Below are positions 2,266 through 25,883 of a stretch of DNA of 32,000 nucleotides, piece by piece. The stretch comes from Tannockella kyphosi. GTDB taxonomy: Bacteria; Bacillota_I; Bacilli_A; Erysipelotrichales; Coprobacillaceae. The translations under genes were made by a program, and so were the position numbers. Where the stretch lies: assembly GCF_021054785.1 (NCBI RefSeq), contig NZ_CP088239.1, positions 930,001 to 962,000 on the forward strand, in the 5' to 3' direction. Below the pieces are notes generated by a model, which was given only the letters and a program-made list of their open reading frames with translations, was not told the origin of the DNA and did no database searches. Positions within the stretch are counted from its first letter, which is position 1, and each line of letters begins with the position of its first letter.

Positions 2266-2296
2266 ATATTAAAAAGAAATACCGAAGTATTTCTTT
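2266..2296 (-). terminator. Rho-independent terminator closing the XrtG-type operon
   Basis: Perfect 10-bp stem aaagaaatac (2273-2282) / gtatttcttt (2287-2296) with loop cgaa. On the minus strand it sits immediately after the stop at 2297-2299 and is followed by TTTTTAATAT. Confidence 0.7.
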
Positions 2297-2656
2297 TTAA
2301 TATCTAGTAATATAACTTCTTGAAGGCGTTTCACTTATTGTAAAACTTCGCAGTGACCATTTTCTTTTTAACATTTCTTCATCAATTAGTTCTGTAAAAT
2401 AATCACCAATCACTTCTAAGGTTGGAAATCTTTTATCAAAAGGAGCTAAATCATTTAATAAACTATTTTGATAAATAGATAAAAGATCTTTAATAACTGC
2501 TTCAATTTGACTAAAAGGAATTACTTTTTCACCCTGTACTTCAACCATAACAGTAATTTCCCATGTATGTGGATGAACTTGTCCTAAGCGATTTTCAATT
2601 AATACATAGTGATTTGCATCTAAATAGAACTTATATTGATACATTCTCTTTAACAT
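2297..2656 (-). CDS. 6-pyruvoyl-tetrahydropterin synthase/QueD-related small protein (paralog 2)
   Basis: 119 aa. It aligns by eye with E. coli QueD: F-x-x-D-A-N-H, then H-P-H-T-W (HGHSF-type His pair), L-L-N-D (YLND block) and S-E-T-P (KETC block). It contains no Cys at all. AGGAGG SD; the ATG directly abuts the GT2 stop. Confidence 0.65.
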   Translation of the reverse strand: MLKRMYQYKFYLDANHYVLIENRLGQVHPHTWEITVMVEVQGEKVIPFSQIEAVIKDLLSIYQNSLLNDLAPFDKRFPTLEVIGDYFTELIDEEMLKRKWSLRSFTISETPSRSYITRY

Positions 2657-3955
2657 TTATTTCTCCTCCTTTTTGAGCCATGAAAAAGTAATATCTTTCC
2701 ACACATAGCAAAAAAACATACTTATTTCATCTTTAATAGTATAGGAACTGTTATTTTTATAGCGTAAATGACTAGTTTTTTTAGTCAAGATAAACTGATA
2801 TGGATATGTCAAAACCTTATAAATAGGATGTAATAATAAGAAAATAAAGGAATGTAAATAATACTTTTTATCATCACAAAATAAAGATAGGTAAGATAAA
2901 ATATTGAAACTATAGAATAGTGTACTAATAAGATAGATTCCATAAATACAAGCAAATGATATACCTAATTGATAGAAACCAAATATTGAATAGGTATAGA
3001 TAGTCATGGAAACAAACCAAATAGCCTTTATCATGTATCCTAAATACATAACTAAGGAAGATAGAATTGATTTTTTAATTAATTGAAATGAAAATATTTT
3101 CAATTGATCCATATTCCATTGTCTTTTATTATAAACACATTGACGTATAGAATGAGTTGGTGGAATATAAAAAATAGCGTTCTCACATAAACTTACCTTA
3201 AAATTCTTAGCTGATAATTGAGCAGTTATATGACTATCTTCTACTAATGTATTAGTATCATATAAAAAAGTTGATAATATTGATGATTTTTTAAATACTG
3301 TATAAGGGGCAGAAACAGTCATTTGATTTTTTATGTTTGATTTATAATTTTTACCTGTAAAAAATGTTTTACAGAAATCCAAAAATTCAAAACGACGAAT
3401 AAATCGTAAAACAATCGAACTTTTCTTTTTTATTTGTTTTTTATCAGTTAAAACAACTCCTGTTAAACAATCAATAGAACGATCGTTTTCAAAACGTGTA
3501 ACTATATTACACAAAGAATCAACATGAAAATATCCAATTGTATCTACATTCACAATATATTTTCCTTCACTATTAAATAATCCCTTATTCAAAGCTTTCG
3601 CCTTCCCTAAATTAGACGAAATCCAACGCATATTAATATCATATTTTAATTGGCATAACTGAAAAACATCAAACGTATCATCCGTACATCCTGTATCTAA
3701 CAACAAAATACTGATTAAATAATTTTCATAAGAACAATCATTTATGGAAGCAATACATCTTTCTAACGTTTCTTGACAATTATATACAGGAATTAAGATC
3801 GTTATTTCTGGGAACATTTTAGGAGGAATATCAATTTTAGGTTTCTTATTTTTATTTAAAAACAAATAACATAAAATGGCAGGTAGTAACTCAAATAAAA
3901 ATGGAACAATAAGCCATAAACCAAAACAAAAGAAATAATGATAGAATAATTCCAT
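2657..3955 (-). CDS. Family-2 glycosyltransferase, membrane-embedded processive-synthase type
   Basis: N-terminal TM, then a GT-A core (ILIPVYN..., DTGCTDDT, VNVDT, LVEDSHIT). NKRQW sits where processive GT2s carry QxxRW. At least 4 C-terminal TM segments. The ATG overlaps the stop of the upstream gene (TAATG). Confidence 0.8.
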   Translation of the reverse strand: MELFYHYFFCFGLWLIVPFLFELLPAILCYLFLNKNKKPKIDIPPKMFPEITILIPVYNCQETLERCIASINDCSYENYLISILLLDTGCTDDTFDVFQLCQLKYDINMRWISSNLGKAKALNKGLFNSEGKYIVNVDTIGYFHVDSLCNIVTRFENDRSIDCLTGVVLTDKKQIKKKSSIVLRFIRRFEFLDFCKTFFTGKNYKSNIKNQMTVSAPYTVFKKSSILSTFLYDTNTLVEDSHITAQLSAKNFKVSLCENAIFYIPPTHSIRQCVYNKRQWNMDQLKIFSFQLIKKSILSSLVMYLGYMIKAIWFVSMTIYTYSIFGFYQLGISFACIYGIYLISTLFYSFNILSYLSLFCDDKKYYLHSFIFLLLHPIYKVLTYPYQFILTKKTSHLRYKNNSSYTIKDEISMFFCYVWKDITFSWLKKEEK

Positions 3956-4530
3956 TATAATTCCCTCCTATTTTTCCATTTTAACATCCTTTTCTTATTG
4001 AAAAAGATATATTTAAAAAATAAAAACAGTAATAAACAATAAATAATTGTAATAAAAATAGAAAAGTAAAAATATAATATATCCCCTACAAAAGATATGT
4101 ATAAAGATAGAATAATAATTTTAATAATATTAAAATATATTATTACAAAAAAACCGATTAATAGATATTTGACTTTTTCTAGAATCTTGTATAAAGGAGA
4201 AACAACTAATAATGAAAAATAGAAAGAAATTTCTAACAATCCTGAAGTAAATAAAGTAATTAGATAACTATATACTTGATTTTGGTTTTGAAACACTAAT
4301 AAGCCATAAACTGGATCCCCTTGAAACAAGTTTAACACTTCCCCTAATGGGCTTAAAAATAACGTGAACATATAAATAAACTCATACTTAAAATAAGGCA
4401 TAAGCATATATATTCCGCAAAATAATCCAATAGCTATAAAAACGGAACCTAGTGTCGCTAATTTAGCACGATAACAAACAAAAATGCAATAAAGCCATAT
4501 TACTAGAGCAATAATAATACTTATATTCAT
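3955..4530 (-). CDS. xrtG: Small polytopic membrane protein; candidate XrtG-type (Gram-positive exosortase-family) protein
   Basis: 191 aa with about 6 hydrophobic segments. The call rests mainly on context: a GT2 plus two QueD-related genes, the neighbourhood I recall as defining XrtG. Internal LFTSGLLE string. Not verified by alignment. Confidence 0.45.
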   Translation of the reverse strand: MNISIIIALVIWLYCIFVCYRAKLATLGSVFIAIGLFCGIYMLMPYFKYEFIYMFTLFLSPLGEVLNLFQGDPVYGLLVFQNQNQVYSYLITLFTSGLLEISFYFSLLVVSPLYKILEKVKYLLIGFFVIIYFNIIKIIILSLYISFVGDILYFYFSIFITIIYCLLLFLFFKYIFFNKKRMLKWKNRREL

Positions 4531-4532
4531 AT

Positions 4533-4865
4533 TTATTCAACCCTTTCAATGCGATATAGCTGTATAGGTGAATCACTAAGTTCTAATGCGATTAGATTCT
4601 TATTCCCTATCAGACGATCGAAATCTTTAAAGATTTCTTCTGCAATCACTTCAATAGTTGGAATTTCAAAGAAAATATCATTTAAATATTTCCCTTTGTA
4701 TCTCCTTAAATAGGTGATTAATTTTTTTTCCGTAATATCATAAGACATATTTTCTTGATGCTTCAAAAAAGCACTTACCACAAATGAATGAGTATGAACT
4801 TGTGTATTGTCTAATCTATTGCTATGAGCAGCATTAAAACTAAAAGAATATTTATAACATCCCAT
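4533..4865 (-). CDS. 6-pyruvoyl-tetrahydropterin synthase/QueD-related small protein (paralog 1)
   Basis: FSFNAAH...HTHSF...YLND...PTIEVIAEEIF aligns by eye with QueD FEAAH...HGHSF...YLND...PTSEVLAKWIW. Start moved to the ATG at 4863-4865 (MGCYKYSF), which has AGGAGG 6 nt upstream. The track's longer start would overlap the EAL gene. Confidence 0.7.
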   Translation of the reverse strand: MGCYKYSFSFNAAHSNRLDNTQVHTHSFVVSAFLKHQENMSYDITEKKLITYLRRYKGKYLNDIFFEIPTIEVIAEEIFKDFDRLIGNKNLIALELSDSPIQLYRIERVE

Positions 4866-4881
4866 AATCATCCTCCTAAAG

Positions 4882-7398
4882 TTAGTTATTTTTAAATATA
4901 CTATCAAATGGTAAAGGTTTCGCAAAATAATATCCTTGTGAATGCAAAATATGAAACTTTTCTACTTTTTCTTGAATTTCCTTATTCTCAACATATTCAG
5001 CAACTAAATCAATCGATAACTTATCACCTAAAGAACTAATTATATCTAATAAAACTTCACTATCTTTATCTTTATCTAATTCTTTAATAATTTGTCCATC
5101 TATTTTAATAACATCCGGATGTATCTTAATAATTTCATAAAGATTTGAGTATCCAGAACCAAAATCATCGACCGCTATTTTTGCACCATAAGTTCGTATT
5201 TCTTTAATAAAATCATTTAAACTAGACATATCTTCTATATAATCTTCTTCTACAATTTCAAAAGTAATCTGAGAAGGATTTTTATGAGACGCAAGTTTCT
5301 TTATAATAAAAGTTTTCAGTTTTGATGAAGAAATATCATGTGCTGATAAATTAATATTAATACCATAATCTAATCCATTAAAATCATTTAATGCTTGATC
5401 AATCATACGAATATTTAAATCTAAATATAAACGATATTTTTTAGAAATAGGCATAAATGAATAAGGTGTATGGATATTTCCATCCATGTCTTCTAAACGC
5501 ATTAAAGCCTCGTATTTATCAATACATTTTGTTTTATTATTATATAGCCCTTGATAATAAGGAATGATTTTATCATTCGTTAAAGCATATTGAATTAATT
5601 GAATAGCATCTAATTCTGATTTTGAGGCATTACTTTGAACAGGTTGTAGTGAACTAATAATCATCCTGTTTTGTGATAATTTGTTATGTTCTAATTGTAT
5701 ATAAGCTTCTTCTAATAAAGAATCTCCCTTATCAACAACTATAAAACGTAAAAGGAAAGGTGTTGTTAATGTTTTGTTTTGATGATCATTGCATATAAAT
5801 TCCATTTTATGAACAAAATCAATAAAATCATGGGTAGAAAGTATATTTTTACCAGCCAATACAAATGTACTGTTATCAAATATATAAGGGATAATAAAAT
5901 CATTATGATCTTGAAATAAAGGAGAATATTTCATCATTTGAATGAATTGTTGAATGTTTTCAAAATATTCGTTTAAACCTAAATGAGAATGTAAAATATC
6001 AGAATTCTCAATTTTAATTAAACATATCTTATTAAACTTATTATCTTTTACATCCAATTCAAATTGAAACATATTCCCTAATCCATAAGTAGATTCTAAT
6101 AATGTTTGACTGTTATAACCAGATTCTTTATTAATAATTTGATCTAAAATAACATCATTTTCAACAGAAGAAGTACGCCCTTGTTTATTTGTTAAAAACT
6201 CAAGCAAATCCTGACTATCATCTTGAATATCATCTAGATGCTTCAAAACATCCACATCCACATCTAAATAGTTTTCTTTTTCACCGAAACCAGTTAAAAC
6301 ACAAGAACCATTTAAAAGTGTATTCGCTCCATTATCATAACCAAACTCACCTAACAAGAAAACTCCATTAACAGGATTTTTATGAAAAGTAGTTAATTCC
6401 CATTGTGCACAATTTTTTAAATATAACTTTCTAAATAAACAACTGTAACAAAATAATGTTTCCATTGAGCTATTTTTAACTAAATAAGTAGTTTCTTTTA
6501 CTTCTTCAATACATTTAGAAGGTGAAGTATAACTAATTTTAAATTTAGTTCCTTTTTCTAAACGACTAAAATACTGAGATATTTGTTGTGAATCTTCATC
6601 AAAATGGACAAAACGAATTGCACTAGGATGACTTTCTAATGATATTTGAAAGCGGACCAAAGGGTCTAATTTCGCTGTTTCTTCCCATGTTGTATAATGT
6701 TTTGTGCTTAAGAATCCTAGTTTCTCTTCTAACCATTCTCTGGCAGGAACATTTTCTATTGTAGTAATTACACGATCTTTTACACCTGTAATTGTATATG
6801 TTTTTGTAACCGGTGTATGTGAGGTATTAATACGGTGGAACGTACTAAATGTTTCTCCATAAACACCTGCACATATCAAAGCATTTGATTGATAAGTAGT
6901 ATCATCAAAAACAAAAGGAGTTGTTTTACTTTGATATAATTCTCCTGACATTCCTCCAGCAATTTGTGTTTTAATCATTGCTATGTTTAATGTTTCGATA
7001 AGTTGATGAGCGTAATCATAATATGCGCCGACAAACATTCGAAGTAATTTTGGTTGGTTATTACCCCAAAACGAAGATACTTCATTACTAATTTCTTGAT
7101 ATGTTTTATTCTCTAAAGAAATCATGGTTGTATCGAAATTACTAGATTCATACTGTTCTATACATAGTAAAGTATGTTGATCGTATTGTTTATCATGATA
7201 AATAATACCATTTACACTACTCCCTATTATTTTACTATTTGGTAATAATTCTTTTACTTTTTTAGCAAATTCGACAGCATCTGTAGGCTCTAAAGCACAC
7301 GTAAAAATTTGCACTAAGCACTGCTTAGCACTATCAATATCCTGTAAATTTTGTTCCAATAATTCAGTTGATTCAAACAAATGATGTATGACTTTCAT
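4882..7398 (-). CDS. FIST-domain / degenerate GGDEF-like / EAL-domain protein (c-di-GMP phosphodiesterase)
   Basis: C-terminal EAL signatures: YEALMRL, NINLS, FEIVEE, DDFGSGYSNL, KIDGQ, AEYVE, QGYYF. The middle region resembles a GGDEF fold, but the motif slot reads FDNSTF. The N-terminal ~400 aa is FIST-like (IGSSVNGII, AGGMSGE, LGEFGY). AGGGGGG SD. Confidence 0.8.
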   Translation of the reverse strand: MKVIHHLFESTELLEQNLQDIDSAKQCLVQIFTCALEPTDAVEFAKKVKELLPNSKIIGSSVNGIIYHDKQYDQHTLLCIEQYESSNFDTTMISLENKTYQEISNEVSSFWGNNQPKLLRMFVGAYYDYAHQLIETLNIAMIKTQIAGGMSGELYQSKTTPFVFDDTTYQSNALICAGVYGETFSTFHRINTSHTPVTKTYTITGVKDRVITTIENVPAREWLEEKLGFLSTKHYTTWEETAKLDPLVRFQISLESHPSAIRFVHFDEDSQQISQYFSRLEKGTKFKISYTSPSKCIEEVKETTYLVKNSSMETLFCYSCLFRKLYLKNCAQWELTTFHKNPVNGVFLLGEFGYDNGANTLLNGSCVLTGFGEKENYLDVDVDVLKHLDDIQDDSQDLLEFLTNKQGRTSSVENDVILDQIINKESGYNSQTLLESTYGLGNMFQFELDVKDNKFNKICLIKIENSDILHSHLGLNEYFENIQQFIQMMKYSPLFQDHNDFIIPYIFDNSTFVLAGKNILSTHDFIDFVHKMEFICNDHQNKTLTTPFLLRFIVVDKGDSLLEEAYIQLEHNKLSQNRMIISSLQPVQSNASKSELDAIQLIQYALTNDKIIPYYQGLYNNKTKCIDKYEALMRLEDMDGNIHTPYSFMPISKKYRLYLDLNIRMIDQALNDFNGLDYGININLSAHDISSSKLKTFIIKKLASHKNPSQITFEIVEEDYIEDMSSLNDFIKEIRTYGAKIAVDDFGSGYSNLYEIIKIHPDVIKIDGQIIKELDKDKDSEVLLDIISSLGDKLSIDLVAEYVENKEIQEKVEKFHILHSQGYYFAKPLPFDSIFKNN

Positions 7399-7400
7399 TT

Positions 7401-8594
7401 TTACGCCCCCCTACTTAATTTATATTCTTGTTTAAAAAGATACATTTTTTGATCACACTCGTCTAAAATTTTTTCTATACTATTTCCACATCCTGTTTCT
7501 ACTTCTTGTATCCCATAACTAATAGACATTGTATATTCTTTAGGACTAGCAGCTATAATTTCATTAAAGACAGACTGCATCTTCTGTTCCATCTCTAAAT
7601 AAGAAAGCGTAGAAATGACAACAAATTCATCGCCTCCGATTCTACATAAATACTCAGTAGTATGATCAATATGTTGGATAGTACATTTTGTTACATAATT
7701 AATATAGTAATCTCCTTGGTTATGACCAAAATTATCATTTACAATTTTTAAGTCATTAATATCAATCAAGGTTATTGAAAATGAGTCATTAACAGTTAAT
7801 CTTTTTTTAATTTCGTTAAAGCAAAAACGACGGTTATAACAACCAGTTAAAGCATCACTATAAGCAATTTGTGTTAAATTTAGTTGATTTGTTTGTTCTT
7901 TTGTGACATCTGAAACATAATGGACTAAAGCTCTTTTTCCTTCCCATAGAAAATCATAAGAACGTAAAGCATGGTAAGATTTTAAAATTTCATTATAGTA
8001 TATTGTTGTTTCCTCATTTGCTAGTGCAGAATCCATTTTAGTAAAATGGATTTGACGAAGGGAAAAAGTTTCTAGTTGATAAGCTTCCTCTTTATTATTA
8101 TATATAATAACCCCAGATTCTATATCTTCCACAACGATCCAATCACTGTGGGCATCCATGATTACTTTTAATAGATCAGTTGTTTTTTTTAAAGTGATTG
8201 CATTTTCTTTTAGTTTATTTTCTCTTTCTTCTAATTGACGAATCATTTCATTAAAAGACTCAGAAAAATCTCCTAAGAAGATAACTTTTTGAGCATAGTC
8301 CCCATTTGCAACTTGTTGTGTTTGCCAAGTTAAATGCTTCAAAACTCCATGTAATTCTTTTAAGCCACCGGTTAATAAGTTGTGTCGTCCTGGTAAAGGG
8401 GCATCTAAATTACCTTTACAAATATTGCTAGAAAACTCATTAAGTTCTTGGACACAATTCGATAAATAGAGCAATCCTTCTTGAACATTGTTGATTGTTT
8501 TGTCACAAGATACTAAATCATCTTTAGTAAGCTCTACATTTAAAAGTATTTTCTTGAGTTGTTCTAAAAGAAAATCATAATTAAACGAATCCAT
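7401..8594 (-). CDS. Diguanylate cyclase (cytoplasmic HAMP/coiled-coil plus PAS-like N-terminus, GGDEF C-terminus)
   Basis: ALTGCYNRR, DINDLKIVNDNFGHNQGD and RIGGDEFVV are all intact. The RxxD I-site slot reads HTTE. There is a 2-nt gap to the EAL gene. Confidence 0.9.
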   Translation of the reverse strand: MDSFNYDFLLEQLKKILLNVELTKDDLVSCDKTINNVQEGLLYLSNCVQELNEFSSNICKGNLDAPLPGRHNLLTGGLKELHGVLKHLTWQTQQVANGDYAQKVIFLGDFSESFNEMIRQLEERENKLKENAITLKKTTDLLKVIMDAHSDWIVVEDIESGVIIYNNKEEAYQLETFSLRQIHFTKMDSALANEETTIYYNEILKSYHALRSYDFLWEGKRALVHYVSDVTKEQTNQLNLTQIAYSDALTGCYNRRFCFNEIKKRLTVNDSFSITLIDINDLKIVNDNFGHNQGDYYINYVTKCTIQHIDHTTEYLCRIGGDEFVVISTLSYLEMEQKMQSVFNEIIAASPKEYTMSISYGIQEVETGCGNSIEKILDECDQKMYLFKQEYKLSRGA

Positions 8595-8600
8595 CGTATG

Positions 8601-9134
8601 CTATTCTACTACTTTAGCTTCGAAACGACAAACTCTAGCACCGCTTGCCCAACAATCTACTTCTGTCACAACATATTCTTTTTTTGTATATTCTTTTAAA
8701 ACACCTGCTAAAAATCCTTCATCATAGTTGCATACAGTTTCACCTGTAATTGGTAAACCAGAACAATCTAAATCTTCTCCAATTGTTAATACAGCAAATC
8801 CAGTTTCAACATCAAACTTCTCTACACGTAAAACACCAATTTTACTTTCCACCAATGTTTCTTGTAATTGAGAAATAAATTCATTAAAAGGCAAATCTAA
8901 ATTTAACATATGTTTTGCAAACTCACGACCAGCTAAATCCCCTGACTTTCTAAAAACATCAATCGCATTTTCTTTGCCATATTTTTCAATTAAAACATCT
9001 TTAATTGTAAATTGAAATAAGCGATATACATATACCGGCATTGATTCTCCTAAATTAGTACGTCCCTCTTCAATAGAGCCTATTGAATCCCAACTAAAAC
9101 GATTATCTTCTTCACTTTTTAAAAATTCCAACAT
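8601..9134 (-). CDS. V4R (4-vinyl-reductase-type) small-molecule-binding domain protein
   Basis: 177 aa with a Cys-containing C-terminal half (DCSGLP...CNYDEGFLAG...CWASGARVCRF) typical of V4R domains as I recall them. GGGGGAG SD. First gene of the operon. Confidence 0.65.
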   Translation of the reverse strand: MLEFLKSEEDNRFSWDSIGSIEEGRTNLGESMPVYVYRLFQFTIKDVLIEKYGKENAIDVFRKSGDLAGREFAKHMLNLDLPFNEFISQLQETLVESKIGVLRVEKFDVETGFAVLTIGEDLDCSGLPITGETVCNYDEGFLAGVLKEYTKKEYVVTEVDCWASGARVCRFEAKVVE

Positions 9135-9230
9135 ATGATTCTCCCCCTAATTTTAATTTATATTATAATAATTTTATCATAAAACAGCCTATAAATACTA
9201 CTTTATACATCATAAAATATAGAAATTATG

Positions 9231-9260
9231 AAAAAAAGAGAAATTATTTTAACATTTCTC
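9231..9260 (-). terminator. Probable terminator after the cyclase-like gene
   Basis: 7-bp stem gagaaat (9238-9244) / atttctc (9254-9260). On the minus strand it is followed by a T7 run (rc of 9231-9237). The stem overlaps the end of the CDS. Confidence 0.45.
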
Positions 9261-10668
9261 CCCTTTTTACATTTAAATTAATTTTATTAATTATTTGTTC
9301 ATCTAAATTGTCTATATAATCAAATAATCCATCGACATCAATAATCTTTAACAAAGGATTACTAGCAATACTCTGATAATGAACATCATTCACTTCTGCC
9401 AAATATGTATAGCCTTTAATAACATTATGTAAGCATTTTTCTACATGATCATATCGATGTAAACAAACAGGTGTTTGACTATGATAATGGTTATTAATTA
9501 AAAAAGAACAATTTAAGTTATATGTATCATCATAATATTCTTCTATCTCTCTTAAATAACCAAAACTATAATACATCTCTAATCCACCAAAGCCCCATTG
9601 ATCTTCTTGATTATTTTTACATAAAATTATTTTTAATTGTTTCTCATCCATAAAATAACATAAAAAACTACTATGTATCTTTGTAAGAGGTTTTAAATCA
9701 ATAAGCGTATTTTTATAATTTTTATGAATAATTTTTACAATTCTTTCTATTTTTTGTTGATAGCCATGTTCCTTTGTTAAATAATCAATAATATATTCTT
9801 CATAGCTTTTATAGCCTGTTTGAGAGATGTTCATTCTTGATTTCATGGAACATAAGTATTCATCAAAAACATTCTTTTTATCGCTTGTTTCTTCACTTAA
9901 AGAATCAATAAAACTAATTGTATCATCTCCATGATACATAAAGATAGGATATGGTAATTCATCCCAAACACCTTTTAATGCTTTGAAAGTAACTAAGTTT
10001 ACTTTCAAAAACATTTCTTCATAGTTTTTGCTTATAGAGATATTTAATTTTTTTTGAATATTATAATAATTTCTTAACAAAGATGCTAATGCAAATGAAA
10101 TTACTAATCTATTTTTCATACTATAACTAGAAGTTCTAAAACCAGTATCAATATCAGGCCCTATATATTCTACTTGTTTTCGGTTATCATTTATTTGATA
10201 TTCTGTATAGATATTATCTGTATAAAGACAATCATCTGATATTGTAGCAATCCATGCTGTAGCTTTAATGGAAAGCATTTTACCTGATTCAATATCACAA
10301 ATAATACCTTTATCAATTTTTTCATTTAATGTAACCATATTTTTATATACTTCATCTAAAGTATCATATACTTCATCTAGAGTACCAATATTCTTTGTAT
10401 AAATTATTTCATCCCCTAATGTTTTCCAAAATTGAAACCCACGAGAAGGACTATTAGCAAATTCACTAATAATATGACGTAAAATTTCACTAATAGCATA
10501 AGCCCATTTTCCTTTGTTTTTAGTTTTATATTTTGTTGAATTTACAATATCAAATGAAAAAAAGAAAGTTACAACTTCATCATCTTTATTATATTGAAAA
10601 TCATCCATCTCCCCTATTCTAGAAACAAGAGGTTTTAATTCGGTACTTATTTTATTGTCTATCTCCAT
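9244..10668 (-). CDS. Class III nucleotidyl-cyclase-like domain protein with an uncharacterised ~270-aa C-terminal region
   Basis: The N-terminal ~200 aa match the cyclase-homology-domain pattern: VTFFFSFDIVNST (FxDIxGFT-type, metal Asp), WKTLGDEIIY (K-x-GD, second metal Asp), and VEYIGPDIDTGFRTSSYSMKNRLVIS (dyxGxxVNxAaRl...ilvS). Start placed at the ATG at 10666-10668 (MEIDNK), with AGGTG 7 nt upstream. Confidence 0.55.
   Translation of the reverse strand: MEIDNKISTELKPLVSRIGEMDDFQYNKDDEVVTFFFSFDIVNSTKYKTKNKGKWAYAISEILRHIISEFANSPSRGFQFWKTLGDEIIYTKNIGTLDEVYDTLDEVYKNMVTLNEKIDKGIICDIESGKMLSIKATAWIATISDDCLYTDNIYTEYQINDNRKQVEYIGPDIDTGFRTSSYSMKNRLVISFALASLLRNYYNIQKKLNISISKNYEEMFLKVNLVTFKALKGVWDELPYPIFMYHGDDTISFIDSLSEETSDKKNVFDEYLCSMKSRMNISQTGYKSYEEYIIDYLTKEHGYQQKIERIVKIIHKNYKNTLIDLKPLTKIHSSFLCYFMDEKQLKIILCKNNQEDQWGFGGLEMYYSFGYLREIEEYYDDTYNLNCSFLINNHYHSQTPVCLHRYDHVEKCLHNVIKGYTYLAEVNDVHYQSIASNPLLKIIDVDGLFDYIDNLDEQIINKINLNVKRGEMLK
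10345..10386 (-). repeat. In-frame 21-bp tandem duplication inside the cyclase-like gene
   Basis: atatacttcatctaaagtatc (10345-10365) and atatacttcatctagagtacc (10366-10386) match at 19/21 positions. They encode LDEVYDT / LDEVYKN. Confidence 0.85.
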
Positions 10669-11183
10669 TTCATTACACCTAACCATTTCCCACGATTATT
10701 TGCAGCATATCTTGATACGCAAAAATAACGTGATAATTGTACGATATCAATATAATCATTAGTTGAATTCATATAAACATAATCAAGAAAATCTTTTTTT
10801 GGCATTAATAAATTATCAGCAAACTCTTGTGCTTGAAAGCTATATTCTGTAAAGCCTACTAGACTTTGATTTTCTTTGTAGTCGGTCCATTTTTCATTGT
10901 CTGTTAAATAACCCATATGTAAAAAAACATGTCCTAGCAAACAAGCGATTGCGTTATTTAAACGGGCTTGATTTTGTTTATCAGAAATATGTATTTCAAA
11001 TGTATATTCCTTATTTTCAACAACTCGAACATCACCATTCAAAGGATAATCACTTTTTAGTATTACTTTTCCTCCGATTGATTTCACGATTGGAATGATA
11101 TCGATTATTGGTATATTTATTTGATAGTAATCAATAATAATGTTACATACCTTGGTAATATCTTCTCTAGTCATTGGTAACAT
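10659..11183 (-). CDS. ImmA/IrrE (DUF955, M78-like) family protein with a degenerate metal/catalytic motif
   Basis: Family pattern: NNAIACLLGHVFLH (normally xxHELGHxxLH), EYSFQAQEFADNLLMPKKDF (E-x-x-AN-x-FA-x-x-LLMP), and a C-terminal VSRYAANNRGKWLGV. Start placed at the ATG at 11181-11183 (MLPMTRED), with AAGGAG 9 nt upstream. The track start is a TTG. Confidence 0.65.
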   Translation of the reverse strand: MLPMTREDITKVCNIIIDYYQINIPIIDIIPIVKSIGGKVILKSDYPLNGDVRVVENKEYTFEIHISDKQNQARLNNAIACLLGHVFLHMGYLTDNEKWTDYKENQSLVGFTEYSFQAQEFADNLLMPKKDFLDYVYMNSTNDYIDIVQLSRYFCVSRYAANNRGKWLGVMKWR

Positions 11184-11311
11184 AATTTCCCACTCCTTGC
11201 TTTGTTTATACAATAATTATAGCACTAACATTTAAAAAAGGTAAAGAAAATCATGAAATATTCAATGTTTTTAGATTTCTTGTTATTTTTTTAGATAAGA
11301 ATGTTTATATA

Positions 11312-13391: not shown

Positions 13392-14297
13392 TTATTGATT
13401 TCCAATAATAGTTTTCCATTTTTCTTCATTACCATAACCAAATTGTCTCATTAATTTACCACAGTGCTTTTCCATGATTAAAGCATCTTCTTTATTCCAT
13501 AAGTCCCATGATGTACTTGGTTGTTTGGAATCAATTTTTTTATCAATTAATTCTGGTATAAAAGTAGCAGATATTTTTTGATAAGAAAAATCGGTAGCAA
13601 AGTTTAATAATTCTTCGAAATTTCTTTTTTTATCTTCTGTTAAAAATATATCTTCATATTTAAATACTTGAAAATTATCTTTATTTTTCATTTCTTCTAA
13701 TACGTAAGTATTTAACTTATTATAGAACCAACAATACTTTTCAAACTTAGAAAAGCTTGTCCAATCTTTTAGATAAGGATCCTCTTTAAAACAATTAGGT
13801 TGTAAACTAATATTACGAAAAAAGAACTCAATTGGTCCATACAAGCTATATTCTGTTTTATTTAATGCAGAATAAATCCATGTCCTAGGATCCCGTATAA
13901 TAAAGACAAAACGTGAATCTTGATAAATTTCATCAAGTAACCCTAATAAGCCATAAATATGACCAGAAGAATACACAACAACATTTTCCTTATATAACGC
14001 ATCAACTTGATTATTAATTTTTCGTGCATTTTTGCAAGCTTCCTCTTTTGAAATAGTACCAGCAATATAATCTCTACTTAGTTTATACATAGAATGATTA
14101 TTCATCCCTTGACCAAATGACATATGAAATAAACCATAATCTTTTATTTGTGATAAAAGTTGTTTTGGCTTTGAAAACCAGGGTGTTCCTGGTTCATGTA
14201 AAGAAACTGAATCTTCAATCATCATATTTAAGTATTTAGCAAAGAACTGCGTAGCAGTTCTTCCTGTTGAACATATAAATATTCTTTTTTTAGACAT
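13392..14297 (-). CDS. PAPS-dependent sulfotransferase family protein
   Basis: The N-terminal IFICSTGRTATQFF resembles the 5'-phosphosulfate-binding loop, and IIRDPRTWIYS resembles the 3'-phosphate-binding motif. It lies immediately downstream of cysNC (2-nt gap). AAGGAG SD. Confidence 0.65.
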   Translation of the reverse strand: MSKKRIFICSTGRTATQFFAKYLNMMIEDSVSLHEPGTPWFSKPKQLLSQIKDYGLFHMSFGQGMNNHSMYKLSRDYIAGTISKEEACKNARKINNQVDALYKENVVVYSSGHIYGLLGLLDEIYQDSRFVFIIRDPRTWIYSALNKTEYSLYGPIEFFFRNISLQPNCFKEDPYLKDWTSFSKFEKYCWFYNKLNTYVLEEMKNKDNFQVFKYEDIFLTEDKKRNFEELLNFATDFSYQKISATFIPELIDKKIDSKQPSTSWDLWNKEDALIMEKHCGKLMRQFGYGNEEKWKTIIGNQ

Positions 14298-14299
14298 AA

Positions 14300-16132
14300 T
14301 TACTCCTTCTTTACTATTAGTTTATCGATTATTTCAATAGCAATATCATTTGCACTAATAATTTCTGTATCAAATTCAAATTCTGGATTTGTTGGAATTT
14401 CATATGGATTTTGAATACCTGTAAAATTAGTTATCTCATTTAATCTTGCTTTTTGATATAAGCCTTTGACATCTCTTCTTTCACATTCTTCAATAGAAGT
14501 GGATAAGTAAACTTCATGAAAACAATCACCTATTGCTTTTCTAGCTTTTTGTCTATCTTTTTTATAAGGAGAAATTAAAGAAGTAATTACAATAAGTCCT
14601 GCATCATTCATAAGTTTAGCAACTTCAAAAACTCGCCTTATGTTTTCGACACGATCTGATTCATCAAAAGATAAATCTTTATTTAGACCATGACGTAAAT
14701 TATCTCCATCTAATAAAATAGTATGTTTTCCCATTGCTATTAGATGTTTTTCTAATGCATTAGCAACTGTTGTCTTACCGGCACCACTTAAGCCAGTCAA
14801 CCAAATAGTTAATGGTTCTTGATGTTTTTGATTCGAACGAACTTCCCTGGTAATATCAATATCTTGCCAAATAATATTATCCGTTCTTTTTAATTCTTTT
14901 ATAATAGTCCCGCACGCAGAAGTTTGATGAGAAATACGGTCAATTAGGATAAAACTCCCGATACTTTCTGTTTTTGAGAAAAGGTCTAATGTTATTTGGT
15001 TATTTAACATGATTGTTACTTCTGCAATATCATTCATAAAGACTTTTCTTGCTGATAAGAATTTTCCTGTTTGTAAATCAATACAATGATTAATGCTCAT
15101 TATTGTAGCAGGTATTAATTTAGTTCCACATTTAAATAGATAATTTTGACCAACACCTAATTCATGATGATCCATCCACAATATTTTTGCTTTTAAAAGG
15201 TCAGTAGTTATTAATTTAGTATTATTTGAAATAATATCACCTCTTGCAATATCAATTTCTTTATCCAAACAAACAGTCACACCTTGTCCTTTTAAAGCAC
15301 TATCTACATCTTTACTTCCTATCAAAATACGATTTACTGTAGCATGATTTCGATTTGGATAAATAGTAATATTTTGTCCCACAGTTAAATTACCAGCTTC
15401 TAATTGTCCTTGATAACCCCTAAAAGTATTATCTGGTCTACAAACTCGTTGTACTGGTAATAAGAAAGTATCATTGGCTCCCTGATCATGAATAACAACA
15501 GTTTCTAAATATTCAAAAAGTGTTTTCCCTTTATACCAAATTGTATTTTTAGATCTTTTTGTAATATTATCACCTTTGGTCGCTGATACTGGAATAGCAT
15601 GAATTGTTTCAACTTCAAGATTCGCACAATGTTGTGTAAAATCTCTTACAATCATTTCAAATCTTTCTTGATCATAAGCAATTAAGTCCATTTTGTTTGC
15701 TGCTAATATAAAATGCTTAATACCCATTAAATTACAAATATTAATATGTCGTAAAGTTTGTGGTAAAACTCCCCTAGAAGCATCTATTAGAATAATTGCT
15801 AAATCAGCAAATGATGCACCAACTGCCATATTTCTAGTATATTGTTCGTGTCCTGGACAATCAGCAACAATAAAATTTCTTTTTTCAGTAGCAAAATATC
15901 GATATGCAACATCGATTGTTATTCCTTGTTCTCTTTCTACCATTAATCCATCAAGTAATAAAGAATAATCAATATCTTCATTTTCACTAGATATTTTACT
16001 TGCTAATTCAATTGCTTGTTGTTGATCAGTAAAAATCATTTTTGCATCATAAAGCATATGCCCAATTAATGTAGATTTCCCATCATCAACAGATCCACAT
16101 GTAATAAACTTTAGTATATCTTTTTGTGCCAT
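14300..16132 (-). CDS. cysNC: Bifunctional sulfate adenylyltransferase subunit 1 / adenylylsulfate kinase (CysN-CysC fusion, NodQ-like)
   Basis: GTPase motifs GSVDDGKST, DCPGHEQY and NKMD in the N-terminal ~430 aa. The C-terminal APS-kinase part carries the P-loop LTGLSGAGKTT. The ATG overlaps the cysD stop (TAATG). Confidence 0.9.
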   Translation of the reverse strand: MAQKDILKFITCGSVDDGKSTLIGHMLYDAKMIFTDQQQAIELASKISSENEDIDYSLLLDGLMVEREQGITIDVAYRYFATEKRNFIVADCPGHEQYTRNMAVGASFADLAIILIDASRGVLPQTLRHINICNLMGIKHFILAANKMDLIAYDQERFEMIVRDFTQHCANLEVETIHAIPVSATKGDNITKRSKNTIWYKGKTLFEYLETVVIHDQGANDTFLLPVQRVCRPDNTFRGYQGQLEAGNLTVGQNITIYPNRNHATVNRILIGSKDVDSALKGQGVTVCLDKEIDIARGDIISNNTKLITTDLLKAKILWMDHHELGVGQNYLFKCGTKLIPATIMSINHCIDLQTGKFLSARKVFMNDIAEVTIMLNNQITLDLFSKTESIGSFILIDRISHQTSACGTIIKELKRTDNIIWQDIDITREVRSNQKHQEPLTIWLTGLSGAGKTTVANALEKHLIAMGKHTILLDGDNLRHGLNKDLSFDESDRVENIRRVFEVAKLMNDAGLIVITSLISPYKKDRQKARKAIGDCFHEVYLSTSIEECERRDVKGLYQKARLNEITNFTGIQNPYEIPTNPEFEFDTEIISANDIAIEIIDKLIVKKE

Positions 16133-17031
16133 TAGAAATATCCCTCTCTTTTTCGTCTTTCCATACTTCCAACTTCTTCACTATCAATAACACGTGTCGA
16201 TCTTTCAGAACAAACAGCACCTAAAGTTTCATTAATGATTTCATTAAGTGTTGAAGCATGTGAAACACAACCTCCTGTTAATGGATAGCACCCAAGTGTT
16301 CGAAAGCGAATACTTCCTACCTTTAGTTCTTCGTTAGGTAATAATTTCATTCGGTCATCATCAACACAAATAATATTACCTTCTCTTTCTACATAAGGTC
16401 TTTCTTTAGCAAAGTATAATGGTACAATTTCAATATTTTCTCTAGCAATATATTGCCAAATATCTTTTTCTGTCCAATTGGATAAAGGAAATACCCTCAA
16501 GCTTTCTCCTTGATTTATTTCCATGTTATATAATTTCCACATTTCAGGTCTTTGATTTTGTGGGTTCCACGTATGTTGAGCACTACGATGTGAGATAATA
16601 CGTTCTTTTGCTCTAGATTTTTCTTCATCTCTACGACCACCACATATAGCAGCATCAAAACCATAATGATCTAACCCTTTTTTTAATGCTTCTGTTTTCA
16701 TGATATCTGTATATGACTTACCATGATCAAAGGGATTGATATTTTTAGATACACCTTCTTCGTTACGATACGTATACATTTTGATACCTAATTCATTTGC
16801 TCTTTTATCTTTGAATGAAATCATTTCTTTAAATTTCCACGTTGTGTCAATATGTAAAAAAGGAAATGGTGGTTTTTCAGGATAAAACGCTTTTAATGCC
16901 AAGTGTAACATTACACTACTATCCTTACCTATAGAATATAACATTGCAGGATTTTGACATTCTGACACTACTTCTCTAATAATATAAATCGCTTCTGCTT
17001 CTAATTGATCCAAATATGTTAATTTTTCCAC
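16132..17031 (-). CDS. cysD: Sulfate adenylyltransferase subunit 2
   Basis: PP-loop SIGKDSSV. A strong family-typical C-terminus ([12 protein letters not shown]...SERSTRVID...[12 protein letters not shown]). GTG start at 17029-17031 with AGGGGGA 8 nt upstream. Confidence 0.9.
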
Positions 17032-19134: not shown

Positions 19135-20058
19135 CTAATCTAAGATCGATAAAAACATATCCAATCGTTCATTAATATACCCTGCAAATAACTTTTCCAT
19201 CTCACGCAAATTATGTTTTCCATGATATTCATCAAATGCATTATAATAACTTAAACGGTCAGTGAATTTAATATCAATAGGAGGAAATCCATGTTTCATT
19301 AGTTCTAAATTTACAAGCAATCGTCCACTTCTTCCATTCCCATCAATAAAAGGATAAATGGCTTCGAATTCAATGTGAAACCGTGCCATTTTTGTTGCGA
19401 TATGTTCTTCGCTCTCTTGATACTCTATCAACAATTTTTCCATTTGTGGAGTAATTAAATATGGTTGCATTGGTTCATGGTTTGCCCCTAAAATCAAAAC
19501 TGGCACTTTGCGATAAACACCTCTATCATCTTTTTTGTCAGATAACACGAGATAGTGAATTTGTTTTATGATACTCTCTGATAATGGCATATCGTCTTTC
19601 ACTAAATCTCTTCCAAAATAGAATGCTTCTCTATGCCCCACTGCTTCCATATGATCTTTTAATGGTTTTTTATCAATCGTCAGCCCGCGAAGAACCATGT
19701 CTGTTTCTCGTAATGTTAGGGTATTCCCTTCAATTGTATTGGAGTTATATGTATACTCTATTGCAAATTGCTCCATTAATCGATGTACTTCTCCTTGTGT
19801 AAGGGGTCTTTTGGCATCTAGTTCTACTTTCTTTCGGTCAATCATAGTTAACAGGCTTTCACTTGTTTTCAATCTAGCATCGATAGGTTTATGGGCTGTT
19901 TGCGGTATTCGCCAACTTCTTCCCTCTTGATATGCTCCAGATATTTTCCCCTCTGCACATAAAGTTCTTACACGTCTATCTGATATATTCCATTTTCTGC
20001 AACTTGTTTTACGTTTAAATACATATTCTTCGCTCCAATCTAATCCTATTATACCCAT
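19135..20058 (-). CDS. Fic/DOC family protein with an N-terminal HTH; active-site His replaced by Tyr
   Basis: YPFIDGNGRSGR, where Fic proteins have HPFxDGNGRxxR (codon TAT at 19354-19356). SNTIEGN block. N-terminal WNISDRRVRTLCAEGKISGAYQEGRSWRIP HTH. There is no SD before the ATG, and a TAA lies immediately upstream. Confidence 0.8.
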   Translation of the reverse strand: MGIIGLDWSEEYVFKRKTSCRKWNISDRRVRTLCAEGKISGAYQEGRSWRIPQTAHKPIDARLKTSESLLTMIDRKKVELDAKRPLTQGEVHRLMEQFAIEYTYNSNTIEGNTLTLRETDMVLRGLTIDKKPLKDHMEAVGHREAFYFGRDLVKDDMPLSESIIKQIHYLVLSDKKDDRGVYRKVPVLILGANHEPMQPYLITPQMEKLLIEYQESEEHIATKMARFHIEFEAIYPFIDGNGRSGRLLVNLELMKHGFPPIDIKFTDRLSYYNAFDEYHGKHNLREMEKLFAGYINERLDMFLSILD

Positions 20059-25828: not shown

Positions 25829-25883
25829 AGACACCTCCTTTTGTAACCATTGTTACAAAATAGTTTGGCATCTATGCTTTTTA

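What the first reader, a model, noticed from the sequence alone, without database searches (positions are those of the whole stretch)
2297..9134. Seven-gene operon wiring a c-di-GMP make/break module to an XrtG-type exosortase-like / GT2 / QueD-like cassette
Seen in sequence: seven minus-strand genes are packed with gaps of 6, 2, 16, 2, -1 and 0 nt. They are V4R, GGDEF, FIST-EAL, QueD-like, a 191-aa polytopic membrane protein, a membrane GT2 and a second QueD-like gene. A terminator precedes the operon at 9231-9260 and a strong one closes it at 2266-2296. Established knowledge (from memory, not searched): the trio of a small exosortase-family membrane protein, a dedicated GT2 and a '6-pyruvoyl tetrahydropterin synthase-related' protein is the context used to define the Gram-positive XrtG system in TIGRFAMs/NCBIfam. 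As far as I know that system has no identified substrate, product or phenotype. Processive membrane GT2 synthases (cellulose, PNAG, Listeria Pss) are classically switched by c-di-GMP. Inference: this looks like a c-di-GMP-gated surface-polymer or surface-modification machine. The signalling enzymes and the enigmatic XrtG cassette would be co-transcribed, which offers a concrete handle on XrtG function.
Basis: partly seen in the sequence, partly recalled or inferred. Interest (0 to 1): 0.85.

Follow-up and report, generated by a model that had tools for sequence, protein, structure and literature searches.

The report
c-di-GMP module fused to degenerate XrtG cassette
A fish-gut bacterium has joined a self-contained c-di-GMP signalling unit to a stripped-down surface-sugar gene cassette whose protein-sorting enzyme has lost its catalytic residues, so it is a poor model for the normal XrtG system, but the comparison exposed an unannotated signalling-type protein inside most normal cassettes.

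Summary
The organism is Tannockella kyphosi.

- The 191-aa protein is a true XrtG homologue. It lacks the Cys, Arg and His kept in 74 of 74 relatives, contains no histidine, and scores half the curated cutoff.
- No Firmicu-CTERM substrate gene is present, although every intact cassette checked has one adjacent.
- The GT2 has a synthase-type fold, but its DxD reads DTI and its QRQRW reads NKRQW. It is still under purifying selection.
- The two PTPS-like proteins keep all family-invariant residues and are the most constrained part.
- V4R-GGDEF-FIST/EAL is an autonomous module found elsewhere without the cassette, so the fusion is specific to this species.

Independent support for a c-di-GMP-type link comes from the normal cassettes. 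In 47 of 80, an unannotated membrane sensor with a degenerate GGDEF(-like) domain sits directly after the GT2, and one copy is fused to HD-GYP.

Verdict: a new variant of a known kind, of moderate interest. No c-di-GMP receptor or product is identified.

The parts
9222..9266 (-). Hairpin plus U-run overlapping the stop of the upstream 480-aa gene. It is the likely terminator that insulates the operon from upstream transcription.
   Evidence: -10 kcal/mol, z = -2.45. Sequence.
9135..9221 (-). Leader and promoter region, with TATAAT at 9167-9162, a weak -35, and a GGGGGAG ribosome-binding site at 9146-9141. The promoter is inferred, not shown.
   Evidence: Read from the sequence. Promoter-like matches in the region are at chance level. 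Rfam finds no riboswitch.
8601..9134 (-). Stand-alone V4R protein (177 aa) with four Cys in the V4R domain. It is the presumed small-molecule or redox sensor partner of the cyclase.
   Evidence: Pfam V4R 58.9 bits; NCBIfam MsvR V4R region E = 1e-15. It is conserved as the first gene of the trio in L095-L097.
7401..8594 (-). Cytoplasmic diguanylate cyclase (397 aa). It has an intact GGDEF signature (RIGGDEF), no RxxD I-site, and an uncharacterised coiled-coil/PAS-like N-terminal half.
   Evidence: Pfam GGDEF 91 bits, TIGR00254 88 bits. Alignment to the 4urs cyclase.
6340..7317 (-). FIST_N and FIST_C sensor domains of the phosphodiesterase (aa 28-353).
   Evidence: Pfam FIST 68.9 bits and FIST_C 25.7 bits. 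There is a weak NosP-like match at E = 0.0018.
5656..6084 (-). Cryptic degenerate GGDEF domain of the phosphodiesterase (aa ~439-581). FDNST replaces GGDEF and there is no RxxD. No sequence model detects it.
   Evidence: AF2 pLDDT 85-94. Foldseek top hits are LapD GGDEF-EAL, PleD and DgcR. My GGDEF profile gave no hit even with --max.
4915..5595 (-). EAL phosphodiesterase domain with all catalytic signature residues present (EAL, N, ExxE, DDFG, K, E, Q).
   Evidence: Pfam EAL 169 bits. The alignment to Listeria Lmo0131 (4q6j) shows the motifs.
4533..4865 (-). PTPS-related protein #1 (110 aa). It keeps the His triad, the invariant Glu and a C-terminal Asp.
   Evidence: TIGR03112 49 bits (below the 69.35 cutoff), Pfam PTPS 28 bits. 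All family invariants are kept. It is 78% identical to the L004 orthologue, dN/dS 0.07.
3955..4530 (-). XrtG-homologous polytopic membrane protein (191 aa). Its catalytic residues are replaced (E94F, C95T, R137K, H157S) and it contains no His. It is a pseudo-exosortase.
   Evidence: TIGR03110 53 bits against a 102.75 cutoff. My own XrtG profile gives 74.8 bits. Alignments. NCBI names it 'hypothetical protein'.
2657..3955 (-). Membrane GT2 of the XrtG-associated (TIGR03111) lineage with a synthase-type fold. It has DTI for DSD and NKRQW for QRQRW, retains the ED base, and lacks the C-terminal family motifs.
   Evidence: TIGR03111 298 bits against a 363.95 cutoff. Motifs. AF2 model and Foldseek hits to HAS, BcsA, Chs1 and PcManGT. 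dN/dS is 0.24 against L004.
2297..2656 (-). PTPS-related protein #2 (119 aa). It passes the curated model and keeps the His triad, the invariant Glu and the C-terminal Glu.
   Evidence: TIGR03112 129 bits, above the 69.35 cutoff. Invariants. It is 82% identical to the L004 orthologue.
2266..2296 (-). Strong AT-rich hairpin directly after the last stop codon. It is the likely operon terminator.
   Evidence: 14-bp stem, -13.1 kcal/mol, z = -5.54, with 0 of 200 shuffles folding as well.

Best explanation
This is a species-specific operon fusion in Tannockella kyphosi. An autonomous, widely conserved c-di-GMP turnover module has been joined with a 16-nt gap to a reduced derivative of the XrtG cassette. 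The module consists of a V4R sensor protein, an active GGDEF cyclase, and a FIST / degenerate-GGDEF / EAL phosphodiesterase. The cassette reads PTPS-like, XrtG*, GT2*, PTPS-like. It has lost the sorting half of the system: it has no Firmicu-CTERM substrate gene, and its XrtG has lost the Cys/Arg/His catalytic set. It also lacks the GT-C-like PTPS_related protein, GtrA, the small GT2, and the membrane sensor with a degenerate GGDEF domain that canonical cassettes carry. What remains under selection is a synthase-fold GT2 with non-canonical active-site motifs and two strongly conserved Zn-site T-fold (PTPS-like) proteins. The likely working model, which is inferred, runs as follows. All seven genes are transcribed from one promoter upstream of V4R. 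The V4R and FIST inputs, possibly redox, NO or a small ligand, set a local c-di-GMP pool. That pool acts post-translationally on a membrane complex of GT2*, the non-catalytic XrtG* scaffold and the PTPS-like pair, which makes or modifies an envelope glycan or glycolipid. No protein sorting is involved. On this model the complete make/break module stands in for the built-in degenerate-GGDEF sensor of canonical cassettes.
For: Anatomy and families. Loss of the XrtG catalytic residues, against 74 of 74 conservation in relatives. The sequence contains no His. Firmicu-CTERM genes lie beside the intact XrtG in L001, L005 and L008, and below cutoff in L006. My own profile finds them in 76 of 88 loci. 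None occurs in the window. GT2 motif changes. Synthase-type fold. GT2 evolves at the same rate as the neighbouring genes with dN/dS 0.24, while the PTPS pair shows 78-82% identity and dN/dS 0.07-0.16. PTPS invariants are retained. The operon is intact in six metagenome assemblies. The trio is conserved as a unit elsewhere, and FIST-EAL+GGDEF fusion proteins exist. GGDEF and EAL active sites are intact, and a cryptic degenerate GGDEF sits in the phosphodiesterase. Canonical cassettes carry a dedicated TM-sensor-TM-degenerate GGDEF(-like) gene right after the GT2 in 47 of 80 loci, one of them fused to an intact HD-GYP. The precedent is an in-operon degenerate-GGDEF receptor that activates a Gram-positive GT2 EPS synthase, Listeria PssE (PMC4125290).
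Against: No c-di-GMP receptor was identified. There is no PilZ hit, no RxxD I-site in any GGDEF-type domain here, and no riboswitch. The trio occurs without the cassette in L095-L097. The closest relative's cassette (L004) has azlCD upstream rather than signalling genes, so the linkage is not conserved. Counted by raw density, recognisable GGDEF/EAL/HD-GYP genes are no commoner in or next to cassettes than in the distal flanks (12 observed against 11 expected). The GGDEF-likeness of 34 of the 45 sensor-family members rests on an hhalign probability of only 79%. The GT2 motif losses could mean it no longer makes a polymer at all. Co-transcription has not been shown experimentally. The rest of the genome, with its other GGDEF, EAL or PilZ genes, could not be inspected.
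Confidence: 0.45

Rival explanations
1. The juxtaposition is incidental. The trio and the cassette are functionally independent units brought together by a rearrangement. Co-transcription is a by-product, and the c-di-GMP targets lie elsewhere in the genome.
For: The trio is autonomous and has unrelated downstream genes in L095-L097. In the sister organism an IS110 transposase sits directly after it. The sister cassette L004 has its own upstream intergenic region and no signalling genes. No receptor was found in the operon. A raw density test shows no enrichment of signalling genes near cassettes.
Against: The 16-nt junction has a strong ribosome-binding site and no hairpin, so the cassette now depends on upstream transcription. 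The arrangement is stably kept in wild populations. Canonical cassettes independently carry GGDEF-type proteins at a fixed position, which makes a functional connection a priori plausible.
Confidence: 0.33
2. This is a bona fide XrtG sorting system with a processive EPS synthase, switched on by c-di-GMP.
For: There is homology to the XrtG, TIGR03111 and TIGR03112 families. The GT2 has a synthase-type fold. An active cyclase and phosphodiesterase lie in the same operon.
Against: The XrtG homologue lacks Cys, Arg and His and falls below cutoff. No Firmicu-CTERM gene is present. The second Asp of DxD and the Q and R of QxxRW are lost, against 78-79 of 79 conservation. The closest relative has dispensed with XrtG entirely.
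Confidence: 0.07
3. The cassette is a decaying relic. Its ORFs are intact but it is non-functional, and it is carried along behind a functional signalling operon.
For: Several catalytic signatures have been lost in two proteins. Different additional lesions occur in the sister lineage, namely loss of the catalytic Asp in the GT2 and complete loss of XrtG. The substrate gene and accessory genes are also gone.
Against: GT2 has dN/dS 0.24 and the same divergence as the neighbouring housekeeping-type genes. The PTPS pair is far more conserved than the baseline, at 78-82% against 56-58%. All ORFs are full length with tight translational coupling in seven assemblies. All PTPS family invariants are retained.
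Confidence: 0.12

Closest known systems
XrtG (exosortase G) system of Gram-positive bacteria: NCBIfam TIGR03110 XrtG, TIGR03111 GT2, TIGR03112 PTPS-related domain and TIGR04145 Firmicu-CTERM. It is defined by comparative genomics and is experimentally uncharacterised (only transcriptomic mention, PMC12854382).
   Same: There is homology to three of the four signature families. The core gene order XrtG then GT2 is the same, with PTPS-related genes flanking. The closest intact cassette, L001, has exactly the arrangement CTERM-PTPS-XrtG-GT2-PTPS.
   Different: There is no Firmicu-CTERM gene. The XrtG has no catalytic Cys, Arg or His. The GT2 has no canonical DxD or QxxRW. PTPS_related (GT-C-like), GtrA, the small GT2 and the sensor-dGGDEF gene are all absent. 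Two of the three model scores are below cutoff. A c-di-GMP make/break trio is fused upstream.
Listeria monocytogenes pssA-E and Bacillus subtilis ydaJ-N EPS operons. These are GT2 synthases activated by in-operon degenerate-GGDEF c-di-GMP receptors, PssE and YdaK (PMC4125290, PMC5422440).
   Same: All are Gram-positive operons combining a membrane GT2 with GGDEF-type proteins. The closest solved EAL to the Tannockella phosphodiesterase is Listeria Lmo0131. The sensor-dGGDEF gene of canonical XrtG cassettes occupies a PssE-like position.
   Different: PssE binds c-di-GMP through an RxxD I-site, and none of the GGDEF-type domains here or in the XrtG cassettes has it. There are no BcsB-like or glycosidase partners. 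Here the operon encodes the turnover enzymes rather than a receptor.
c-di-GMP-gated synthase-type GT2 machines: BcsA-PilZ for cellulose and PgaCD for PNAG.
   Same: The GT2 model superposes on BcsA, HAS and Chs-type membrane synthases. PgaC/IcaA is the second-best NCBIfam hit at E = 2e-25. A small polytopic partner (XrtG*) sits next to the GT2, which recalls PgaD or IcaD.
   Different: There is no PilZ domain. The QxxRW and DxD signatures are not conserved. The partner protein is an exosortase homologue and not PgaD or IcaD. No binding data exist.
LapD-type and other degenerate GGDEF-EAL proteins, and FIST/NosP sensor proteins.
   Same: The phosphodiesterase has an S-helix, degenerate-GGDEF and EAL core whose best structural match is LapD, with an N-terminal FIST sensor.
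   Different: The EAL here keeps all catalytic residues, so it is predicted to be an enzyme and not a receptor. It is cytoplasmic, with no HAMP or periplasmic domain.

Membership tests
XrtG exosortase (TIGR03110) | Score at or above the curated cutoff of 102.75 bits | tested here: not met
   The score is 53.2 bits, E = 3.4e-14, aligned end to end. NCBI annotates the protein as hypothetical.
XrtG exosortase (TIGR03110) | Full-length homology to the family | tested here: met
   Profile positions 3-178 of 187 are aligned. A profile built from Clostridial XrtG proteins gives 74.8 bits, E = 7.6e-23. An exhaustive phmmer search returns only XrtG-sized relatives.
XrtG exosortase (TIGR03110) | Catalytic Cys in the ECSG motif. 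The exosortase/archaeosortase Cys is essential in ArtA (Cys173; PMC9263693). | tested here: not met
   The window has F94-T95-S-G, while 74 of 74 relatives have E-C.
XrtG exosortase (TIGR03110) | Conserved Arg (N..R motif) and His (AH motif) | tested here: not met
   The window has K137 and S157, while 74 of 74 relatives have R and H. The protein has no His at all.
XrtG exosortase (TIGR03110) | Cognate Firmicu-CTERM (TIGR04145) substrate gene nearby | tested here: not met
   None is found in the 32-kb window. One is present beside XrtG in L001, L005 and L008 above cutoff. The rest of the genome was not searchable.
XrtG-associated GT2 (TIGR03111) | Score at or above the curated cutoff of 363.95 bits | tested here: not met
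   The score is 298.2 bits and this is the best-scoring family by far. NCBI names the protein plain 'glycosyltransferase'.
XrtG-associated GT2 (TIGR03111) | DxD (DSD) and QRQRW motifs of synthase-type GT2 | tested here: not met
   The window has D138-T-I140 and N-K-R-Q-W280. Relatives have D2 in 78 of 79, Q in 78 of 79, and the R before W in 79 of 79.
XrtG-associated GT2 (TIGR03111) | ED catalytic base and a membrane synthase-type fold | tested here: met
   E239-D240 are retained. The AF2 model has pTM 0.71, and its Foldseek hits are HAS, BcsA, Chs1 and PcManGT at E = 1e-10 to 1e-13.
PTPS-related domain (TIGR03112) | Score at or above 69.35 bits, plus the family invariants (three His, the invariant Glu, and the C-terminal Glu/Asp) | tested here: met
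   PTPS#2 scores 129 bits. PTPS#1 scores 49 bits, below cutoff, but both keep every invariant of the 144 family members.
Active diguanylate cyclase (GGDEF) | Intact GG(D/E)EF and metal/substrate residues, with the domain model passed | tested here: met
   The motif RIGGDEF is present. Pfam gives 91 bits and TIGR00254 gives 88 bits, above its 37.4 cutoff. Enzymatic activity was not tested.
Active EAL phosphodiesterase | EAL, N, ExxE, DDFG, K, E and Q catalytic signature | tested here: met
   All are present in the alignment to Lmo0131. Pfam EAL gives 169 bits. Activity was not tested.
c-di-GMP-activated EPS synthase operon (Pss/Yda/Bcs/Pga type) | A c-di-GMP receptor element: PilZ, an RxxD I-site, or a riboswitch | tested here: not met
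   There is no PilZ hit. No RxxD is found in the cyclase or in the cryptic GGDEF. Rfam gives no hit. Binding by the GT2, XrtG* or the PTPS proteins cannot be tested with these tools.
c-di-GMP-activated EPS synthase operon (Pss/Yda/Bcs/Pga type) | A polymer product that depends on c-di-GMP | not testable with these tools
   This needs genetics and biochemistry in T. kyphosi or a heterologous host.

The most novel reading that the evidence does not exclude
XrtG-type glycan machines are in general c-di-GMP or guanine-nucleotide regulated through components nobody has annotated. One is the membrane sensor with a degenerate GGDEF(-like) domain found right after the GT2 in most cassettes. The others may be the invariably present Zn-site T-fold (PTPS-like) proteins, acting as the nucleotide- or pterin-binding subunits. 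On this reading T. kyphosi shows the minimal signalling-competent core (GT2 plus the PTPS pair), with the exosortase reduced to a scaffold and a full make/break module replacing the built-in sensor.
Probability: 0.15. Interest if true: 0.8.

Novelty: new variant of a known kind. Interest (0 to 1): 0.5.

Why it matters
XrtG systems are widespread in Clostridia, lactobacilli and other Firmicutes. At least 464 species-level genomes matched in one scan, yet these systems have no experimental characterisation. This locus shows three things. First, the cassette can persist under selection without the sorting reaction, which separates a glycan/PTPS core from the exosortase/CTERM half. Second, GGDEF-type proteins are a recurrent and so far unannotated component of canonical cassettes, which gives a testable regulatory hypothesis. 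Third, curated cutoffs correctly withheld the XrtG name here. For anyone wanting to study XrtG, the practical message is to work on a canonical cassette that carries the embedded degenerate-GGDEF sensor, and not on T. kyphosi.

Tried and rejected
1. The word-indexed homologue search with the 191-aa protein returned only two hits. The exhaustive phmmer search was needed.
2. Raw-density enrichment of GGDEF/EAL/HD-GYP genes near cassettes gave no enrichment, with 12 observed against 11 expected. I therefore dropped any statistical claim of linkage based on counts. I rely instead on the conserved family and its fixed position.
3. I looked for an RxxD I-site in the embedded degenerate GGDEF proteins, hoping for PssE/YdaK-like receptors. 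It is absent in all ten.
4. Sequence-profile detection of a GGDEF domain in the FIST-EAL linker failed. Structure prediction resolved it.
5. Within-population polymorphism was tried as a selection test. The copies are 99.8-100% identical, so it was uninformative.
6. A PDB sequence search with PTPS#2 gave no hit at E <= 0.01.
7. Two orthologue look-ups (P0052, P0083) were not on record.
8. The genome-collection scan did not retrieve T. kyphosi itself, because the peptide pattern required the DS of DSD, which this GT2 lacks. A whole-genome census of c-di-GMP genes was therefore not possible.
9. PADLOC scans of the V4R and PTPS proteins found nothing meaningful.

Full report
**Observation**

The window comes from Tannockella kyphosi, an Erysipelotrichaceae isolate from the hindgut of the herbivorous fish Kyphosus sydneyanus. 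PTPS-like#1 starts at the ATG at 4865, behind an AGGAGG site. With that start, the gaps are 6, 2, 16, 2, -1 and 0 nt, as reported.

Both flanking hairpins are real. The downstream one (2296-2266) has a 14-bp stem at -13.1 kcal/mol with z = -5.5. The upstream one (9260-9231) folds at -10 kcal/mol with z = -2.45. The consensus terminator scanner missed them because it requires G+C-rich stems. Rfam finds no RNA family in the window at gathering thresholds, so no c-di-GMP riboswitch. The same arrangement is intact, at 99.8-100% identity, in six independent metagenome assemblies.

**Family assignments**

- V4R: Pfam 58.9 bits.
- GGDEF: 91 bits.
- FIST_N, FIST_C and EAL: EAL scores 169 bits.
- Two PTPS/TIGR03112-type proteins: 129 and 49 bits against a cutoff of 69.35.
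- XrtG, TIGR03110: 53.2 bits against a cutoff of 102.75.
- XrtG-associated GT2, TIGR03111: 298 bits against a cutoff of 363.95.

Three of the four cassette scores fall below the curated cutoffs. NCBI accordingly names the proteins 'hypothetical protein' and 'glycosyltransferase'.

**The XrtG homologue is a pseudo-exosortase**

Alignment with 18 relatives, and then with 74 non-redundant relatives, shows four differences.

| Family position | Relatives | This protein |
|---|---|---|
| Glu of ECSG | E in 74 of 74 | F94 |
| Cys of ECSG | C in 74 of 74 | T95 |
| Arg of N..R | R in 74 of 74 | K137 |
| His of AH | H in 74 of 74 | S157 |

The protein contains no histidine at all. In the homologous archaeosortase ArtA, the conserved Cys and two Arg are required for activity (Abdul Halim 2018, cited in PMC9263693).

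Non-catalytic invariants (G35, S96, G97, E100, G126, N134, G149, F177) and the full-length topology are kept. A Clostridial XrtG profile still scores 74.8 bits. The protein is therefore homologous but not a working transpeptidase.

**The sorting substrate is missing**

Current annotation pairs XrtG with Firmicu-CTERM proteins (PMC12854382). I found such a gene directly beside the intact XrtG in L001 (62.6 bits), L005 (97.6 bits) and L008 (142.3 bits). L006 has one below cutoff at 35.3 bits. My own profile finds one in 76 of 88 loci.

A six-frame search of the whole 32-kb window found none. It also found no PTPS_related, GtrA, small GT2 or cassette sensor. In L004, the closest relative, PTPS#1 is followed directly by the GT2, so the XrtG gene is gone entirely.

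**The GT2 is altered but maintained**

| Motif | Family consensus | This GT2 |
|---|---|---|
| DxD | DSD (second Asp in 78 of 79) | D138-T-I140 |
| QxxRW | QRQRW (Q in 78 of 79; R before W in 79 of 79) | N-K-R-Q-W280 |
| Catalytic base | ED | E239-D240, retained |
| C-terminal motifs | DHTFAFPR and RFAGIINS | both absent |

The single exception among the 79 relatives at the DxD and Q positions is L004.

The AF2 model (pLDDT 74, pTM 0.71) superposes best on PcManGT, hyaluronan synthases, BcsA and Chs1, so the fold is that of a membrane synthase.

Against the L004 orthologue, the GT2 is 56% identical with dN/dS 0.24. That matches the two neighbouring nitroreductases, at 56-58% and 0.19-0.21. PTPS#1 and PTPS#2 are 78% and 82% identical, with dN/dS 0.07 and 0.16. 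dS is saturated, so these ratios are rough.

The GT2 is therefore under ordinary purifying selection despite its non-canonical active site. The PTPS pair is the most constrained component. Both PTPS-like proteins retain every invariant of 144 family members: three His forming the Zn site of T-fold PTPS/QueD enzymes, an invariant Glu, and the C-terminal Glu/Asp.

**The signalling trio**

The cyclase has an intact RIGGDEF motif and no RxxD I-site. The EAL domain has all catalytic signature residues, and its closest solved relative is Listeria Lmo0131.

No sequence model matches the ~200 residues between the FIST and EAL domains. They are modelled confidently, and Foldseek matches them to LapD GGDEF-EAL, PleD and other GGDEF domains. 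The domain has FDNST in place of GGDEF. The protein is therefore FIST / degenerate GGDEF / EAL, a phosphodiesterase and not a bifunctional enzyme.

About 40 full-length orthologues exist, and some are fused to an active GGDEF domain. The three genes V4R-GGDEF-FIST/EAL recur as a unit in two other places.
- L097 (48% identity) has unrelated downstream genes.
- L095/L096 (60% identity) have a convergent IS110 transposase downstream. L096 comes from the same sample as the L004 cassette relative.

The L004 cassette itself has divergent azlCD upstream. The trio is therefore autonomous, and its fusion to the cassette is specific to T. kyphosi.

**Is there a general link between XrtG cassettes and c-di-GMP?**

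A scan of species-representative genomes found at least 464 GT2 relatives, and the best 80 loci were analysed. By raw density, recognisable GGDEF/EAL/HD-GYP genes are not enriched near the cassettes: 12 were observed against 11 expected from the distal flanks.

In eleven loci, however, a GGDEF-domain gene lies inside the cassette, between the GT2 and a PTPS gene. All eleven share the architecture TM, ~170-aa extracytoplasmic domain, TM, degenerate GGDEF. Example signatures are GNSEF, NDDEF, RNNEF and GGSEF. None has the I-site Arg. In L005 the same protein carries an added intact HD-GYP domain.

The N-terminal sensor domain defines a family of 51 ORFs, which reduces to 47 of 80 non-redundant loci. 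Every member lies directly after the GT2. The C-terminal domains of the 34 members not recognised as GGDEF align to GGDEF over 132 columns, with hhalign probability 79% and E = 1.6e-5. One member (L060) carries a PTPS domain in that position. Neither Pfam nor NCBIfam has a model for this family.

Canonical XrtG cassettes therefore usually include a dedicated signalling-type membrane protein. It is positioned like PssE or YdaK in Gram-positive EPS operons (PMC4125290) but lacks their c-di-GMP-binding motif. The searchable literature contains no functional study of XrtG and no link to c-di-GMP.

**Synthesis**

T. kyphosi carries a reduced XrtG-derived cassette that has given up protein sorting. 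It keeps a selected GT2 plus PTPS-pair core, now transcriptionally fused behind a complete c-di-GMP make/break module.

The most likely reading (0.45) is local c-di-GMP control of a GT2*/XrtG*/PTPS membrane complex that makes or modifies an envelope glycan. The main rival (0.33) is an incidental, possibly IS-mediated juxtaposition. Pure decay is contradicted by the selection data.

No receptor, product or phenotype is established.

Noticed in passing
window 9244-11213 (-): A CapP/IrrE-like M78 metallopeptidase (10659-11213) overlaps a 480-aa protein (9244-10686). The peptidase hits PADLOC capP at E = 2.9e-12 and Pfam Peptidase_M78. The 480-aa protein has no hit in Pfam, NCBIfam or PADLOC. Its N-terminus (VVTFFFSFDIVNSTKYK) looks nucleotide-cyclase-like by eye. 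This may be a defence or regulatory pair. In metagenome copy L089 the large gene is called as 362 + 117 aa.
   Followed up: partly
L037:11335-12504, L050:12105-13349, L040:1792-2913 and 44 other loci (directly after the GT2): An unannotated family of TM, sensor, TM, degenerate GGDEF(-like) proteins occurs in 47 of 80 canonical XrtG cassettes. No Pfam or NCBIfam model covers it. Eleven members have a recognisable but degenerate GGDEF without the I-site. The rest are GGDEF-like only by hhalign, at 79% probability.
   Followed up: yes
L005:14802-16667 (same as L026); L060:11371-12567: There are two variants of the cassette sensor family. One is fused to an intact HD-GYP phosphodiesterase domain (Anaerovoracaceae MAG). 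The other carries a TIGR03112 PTPS domain (120 bits) in place of the GGDEF-like domain. Together they hint that the GGDEF-like and PTPS-like modules are functionally connected.
   Followed up: partly
window 13392-17031 (-): A putative sulfation cluster lies about 4 kb upstream of the operon. It comprises a weak sulfotransferase-family protein (13392-14297), a 610-aa GTP_EFTU + APS-kinase (CysNC-like) protein (14300-16132), and an untested 299-aa ORF (16132-17031). Any relation to the GT2 cassette is unknown.
   Followed up: no
P0049 (from the exhaustive search; alignment): This is a second XrtG-family member lacking the catalytic Cys and His (DISG for ECSG, TN for AH) while keeping both Arg. 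Pseudo-exosortases may have arisen more than once. Its genomic context could not be looked up.
   Followed up: no
L095:10537-11721 and L096:6926-8110: An IS110-family transposase lies directly downstream of the stand-alone V4R-GGDEF-FIST/EAL trio in the sister organism, in convergent orientation. It offers a plausible route for the rearrangement that fused the trio to the cassette in T. kyphosi.
   Followed up: no
window 7311-7331 (-): A terminator-like hairpin (9-bp stem, -10.6 kcal/mol) lies inside the 5' end of the FIST-EAL coding region. Its z-score is only -1.9, and the number of such sites in the region matches chance (2 against 1.8).
   Followed up: yes
window 19135-20058, 23285-24343, 24821-25834 (-): These are a Fic/DOC-family protein with an HTH domain, a YhcG-type PDDEXK nuclease (DUF1016), and a SpoIVB sporulation peptidase. 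They are ordinary neighbours unrelated to the finding.
   Followed up: no
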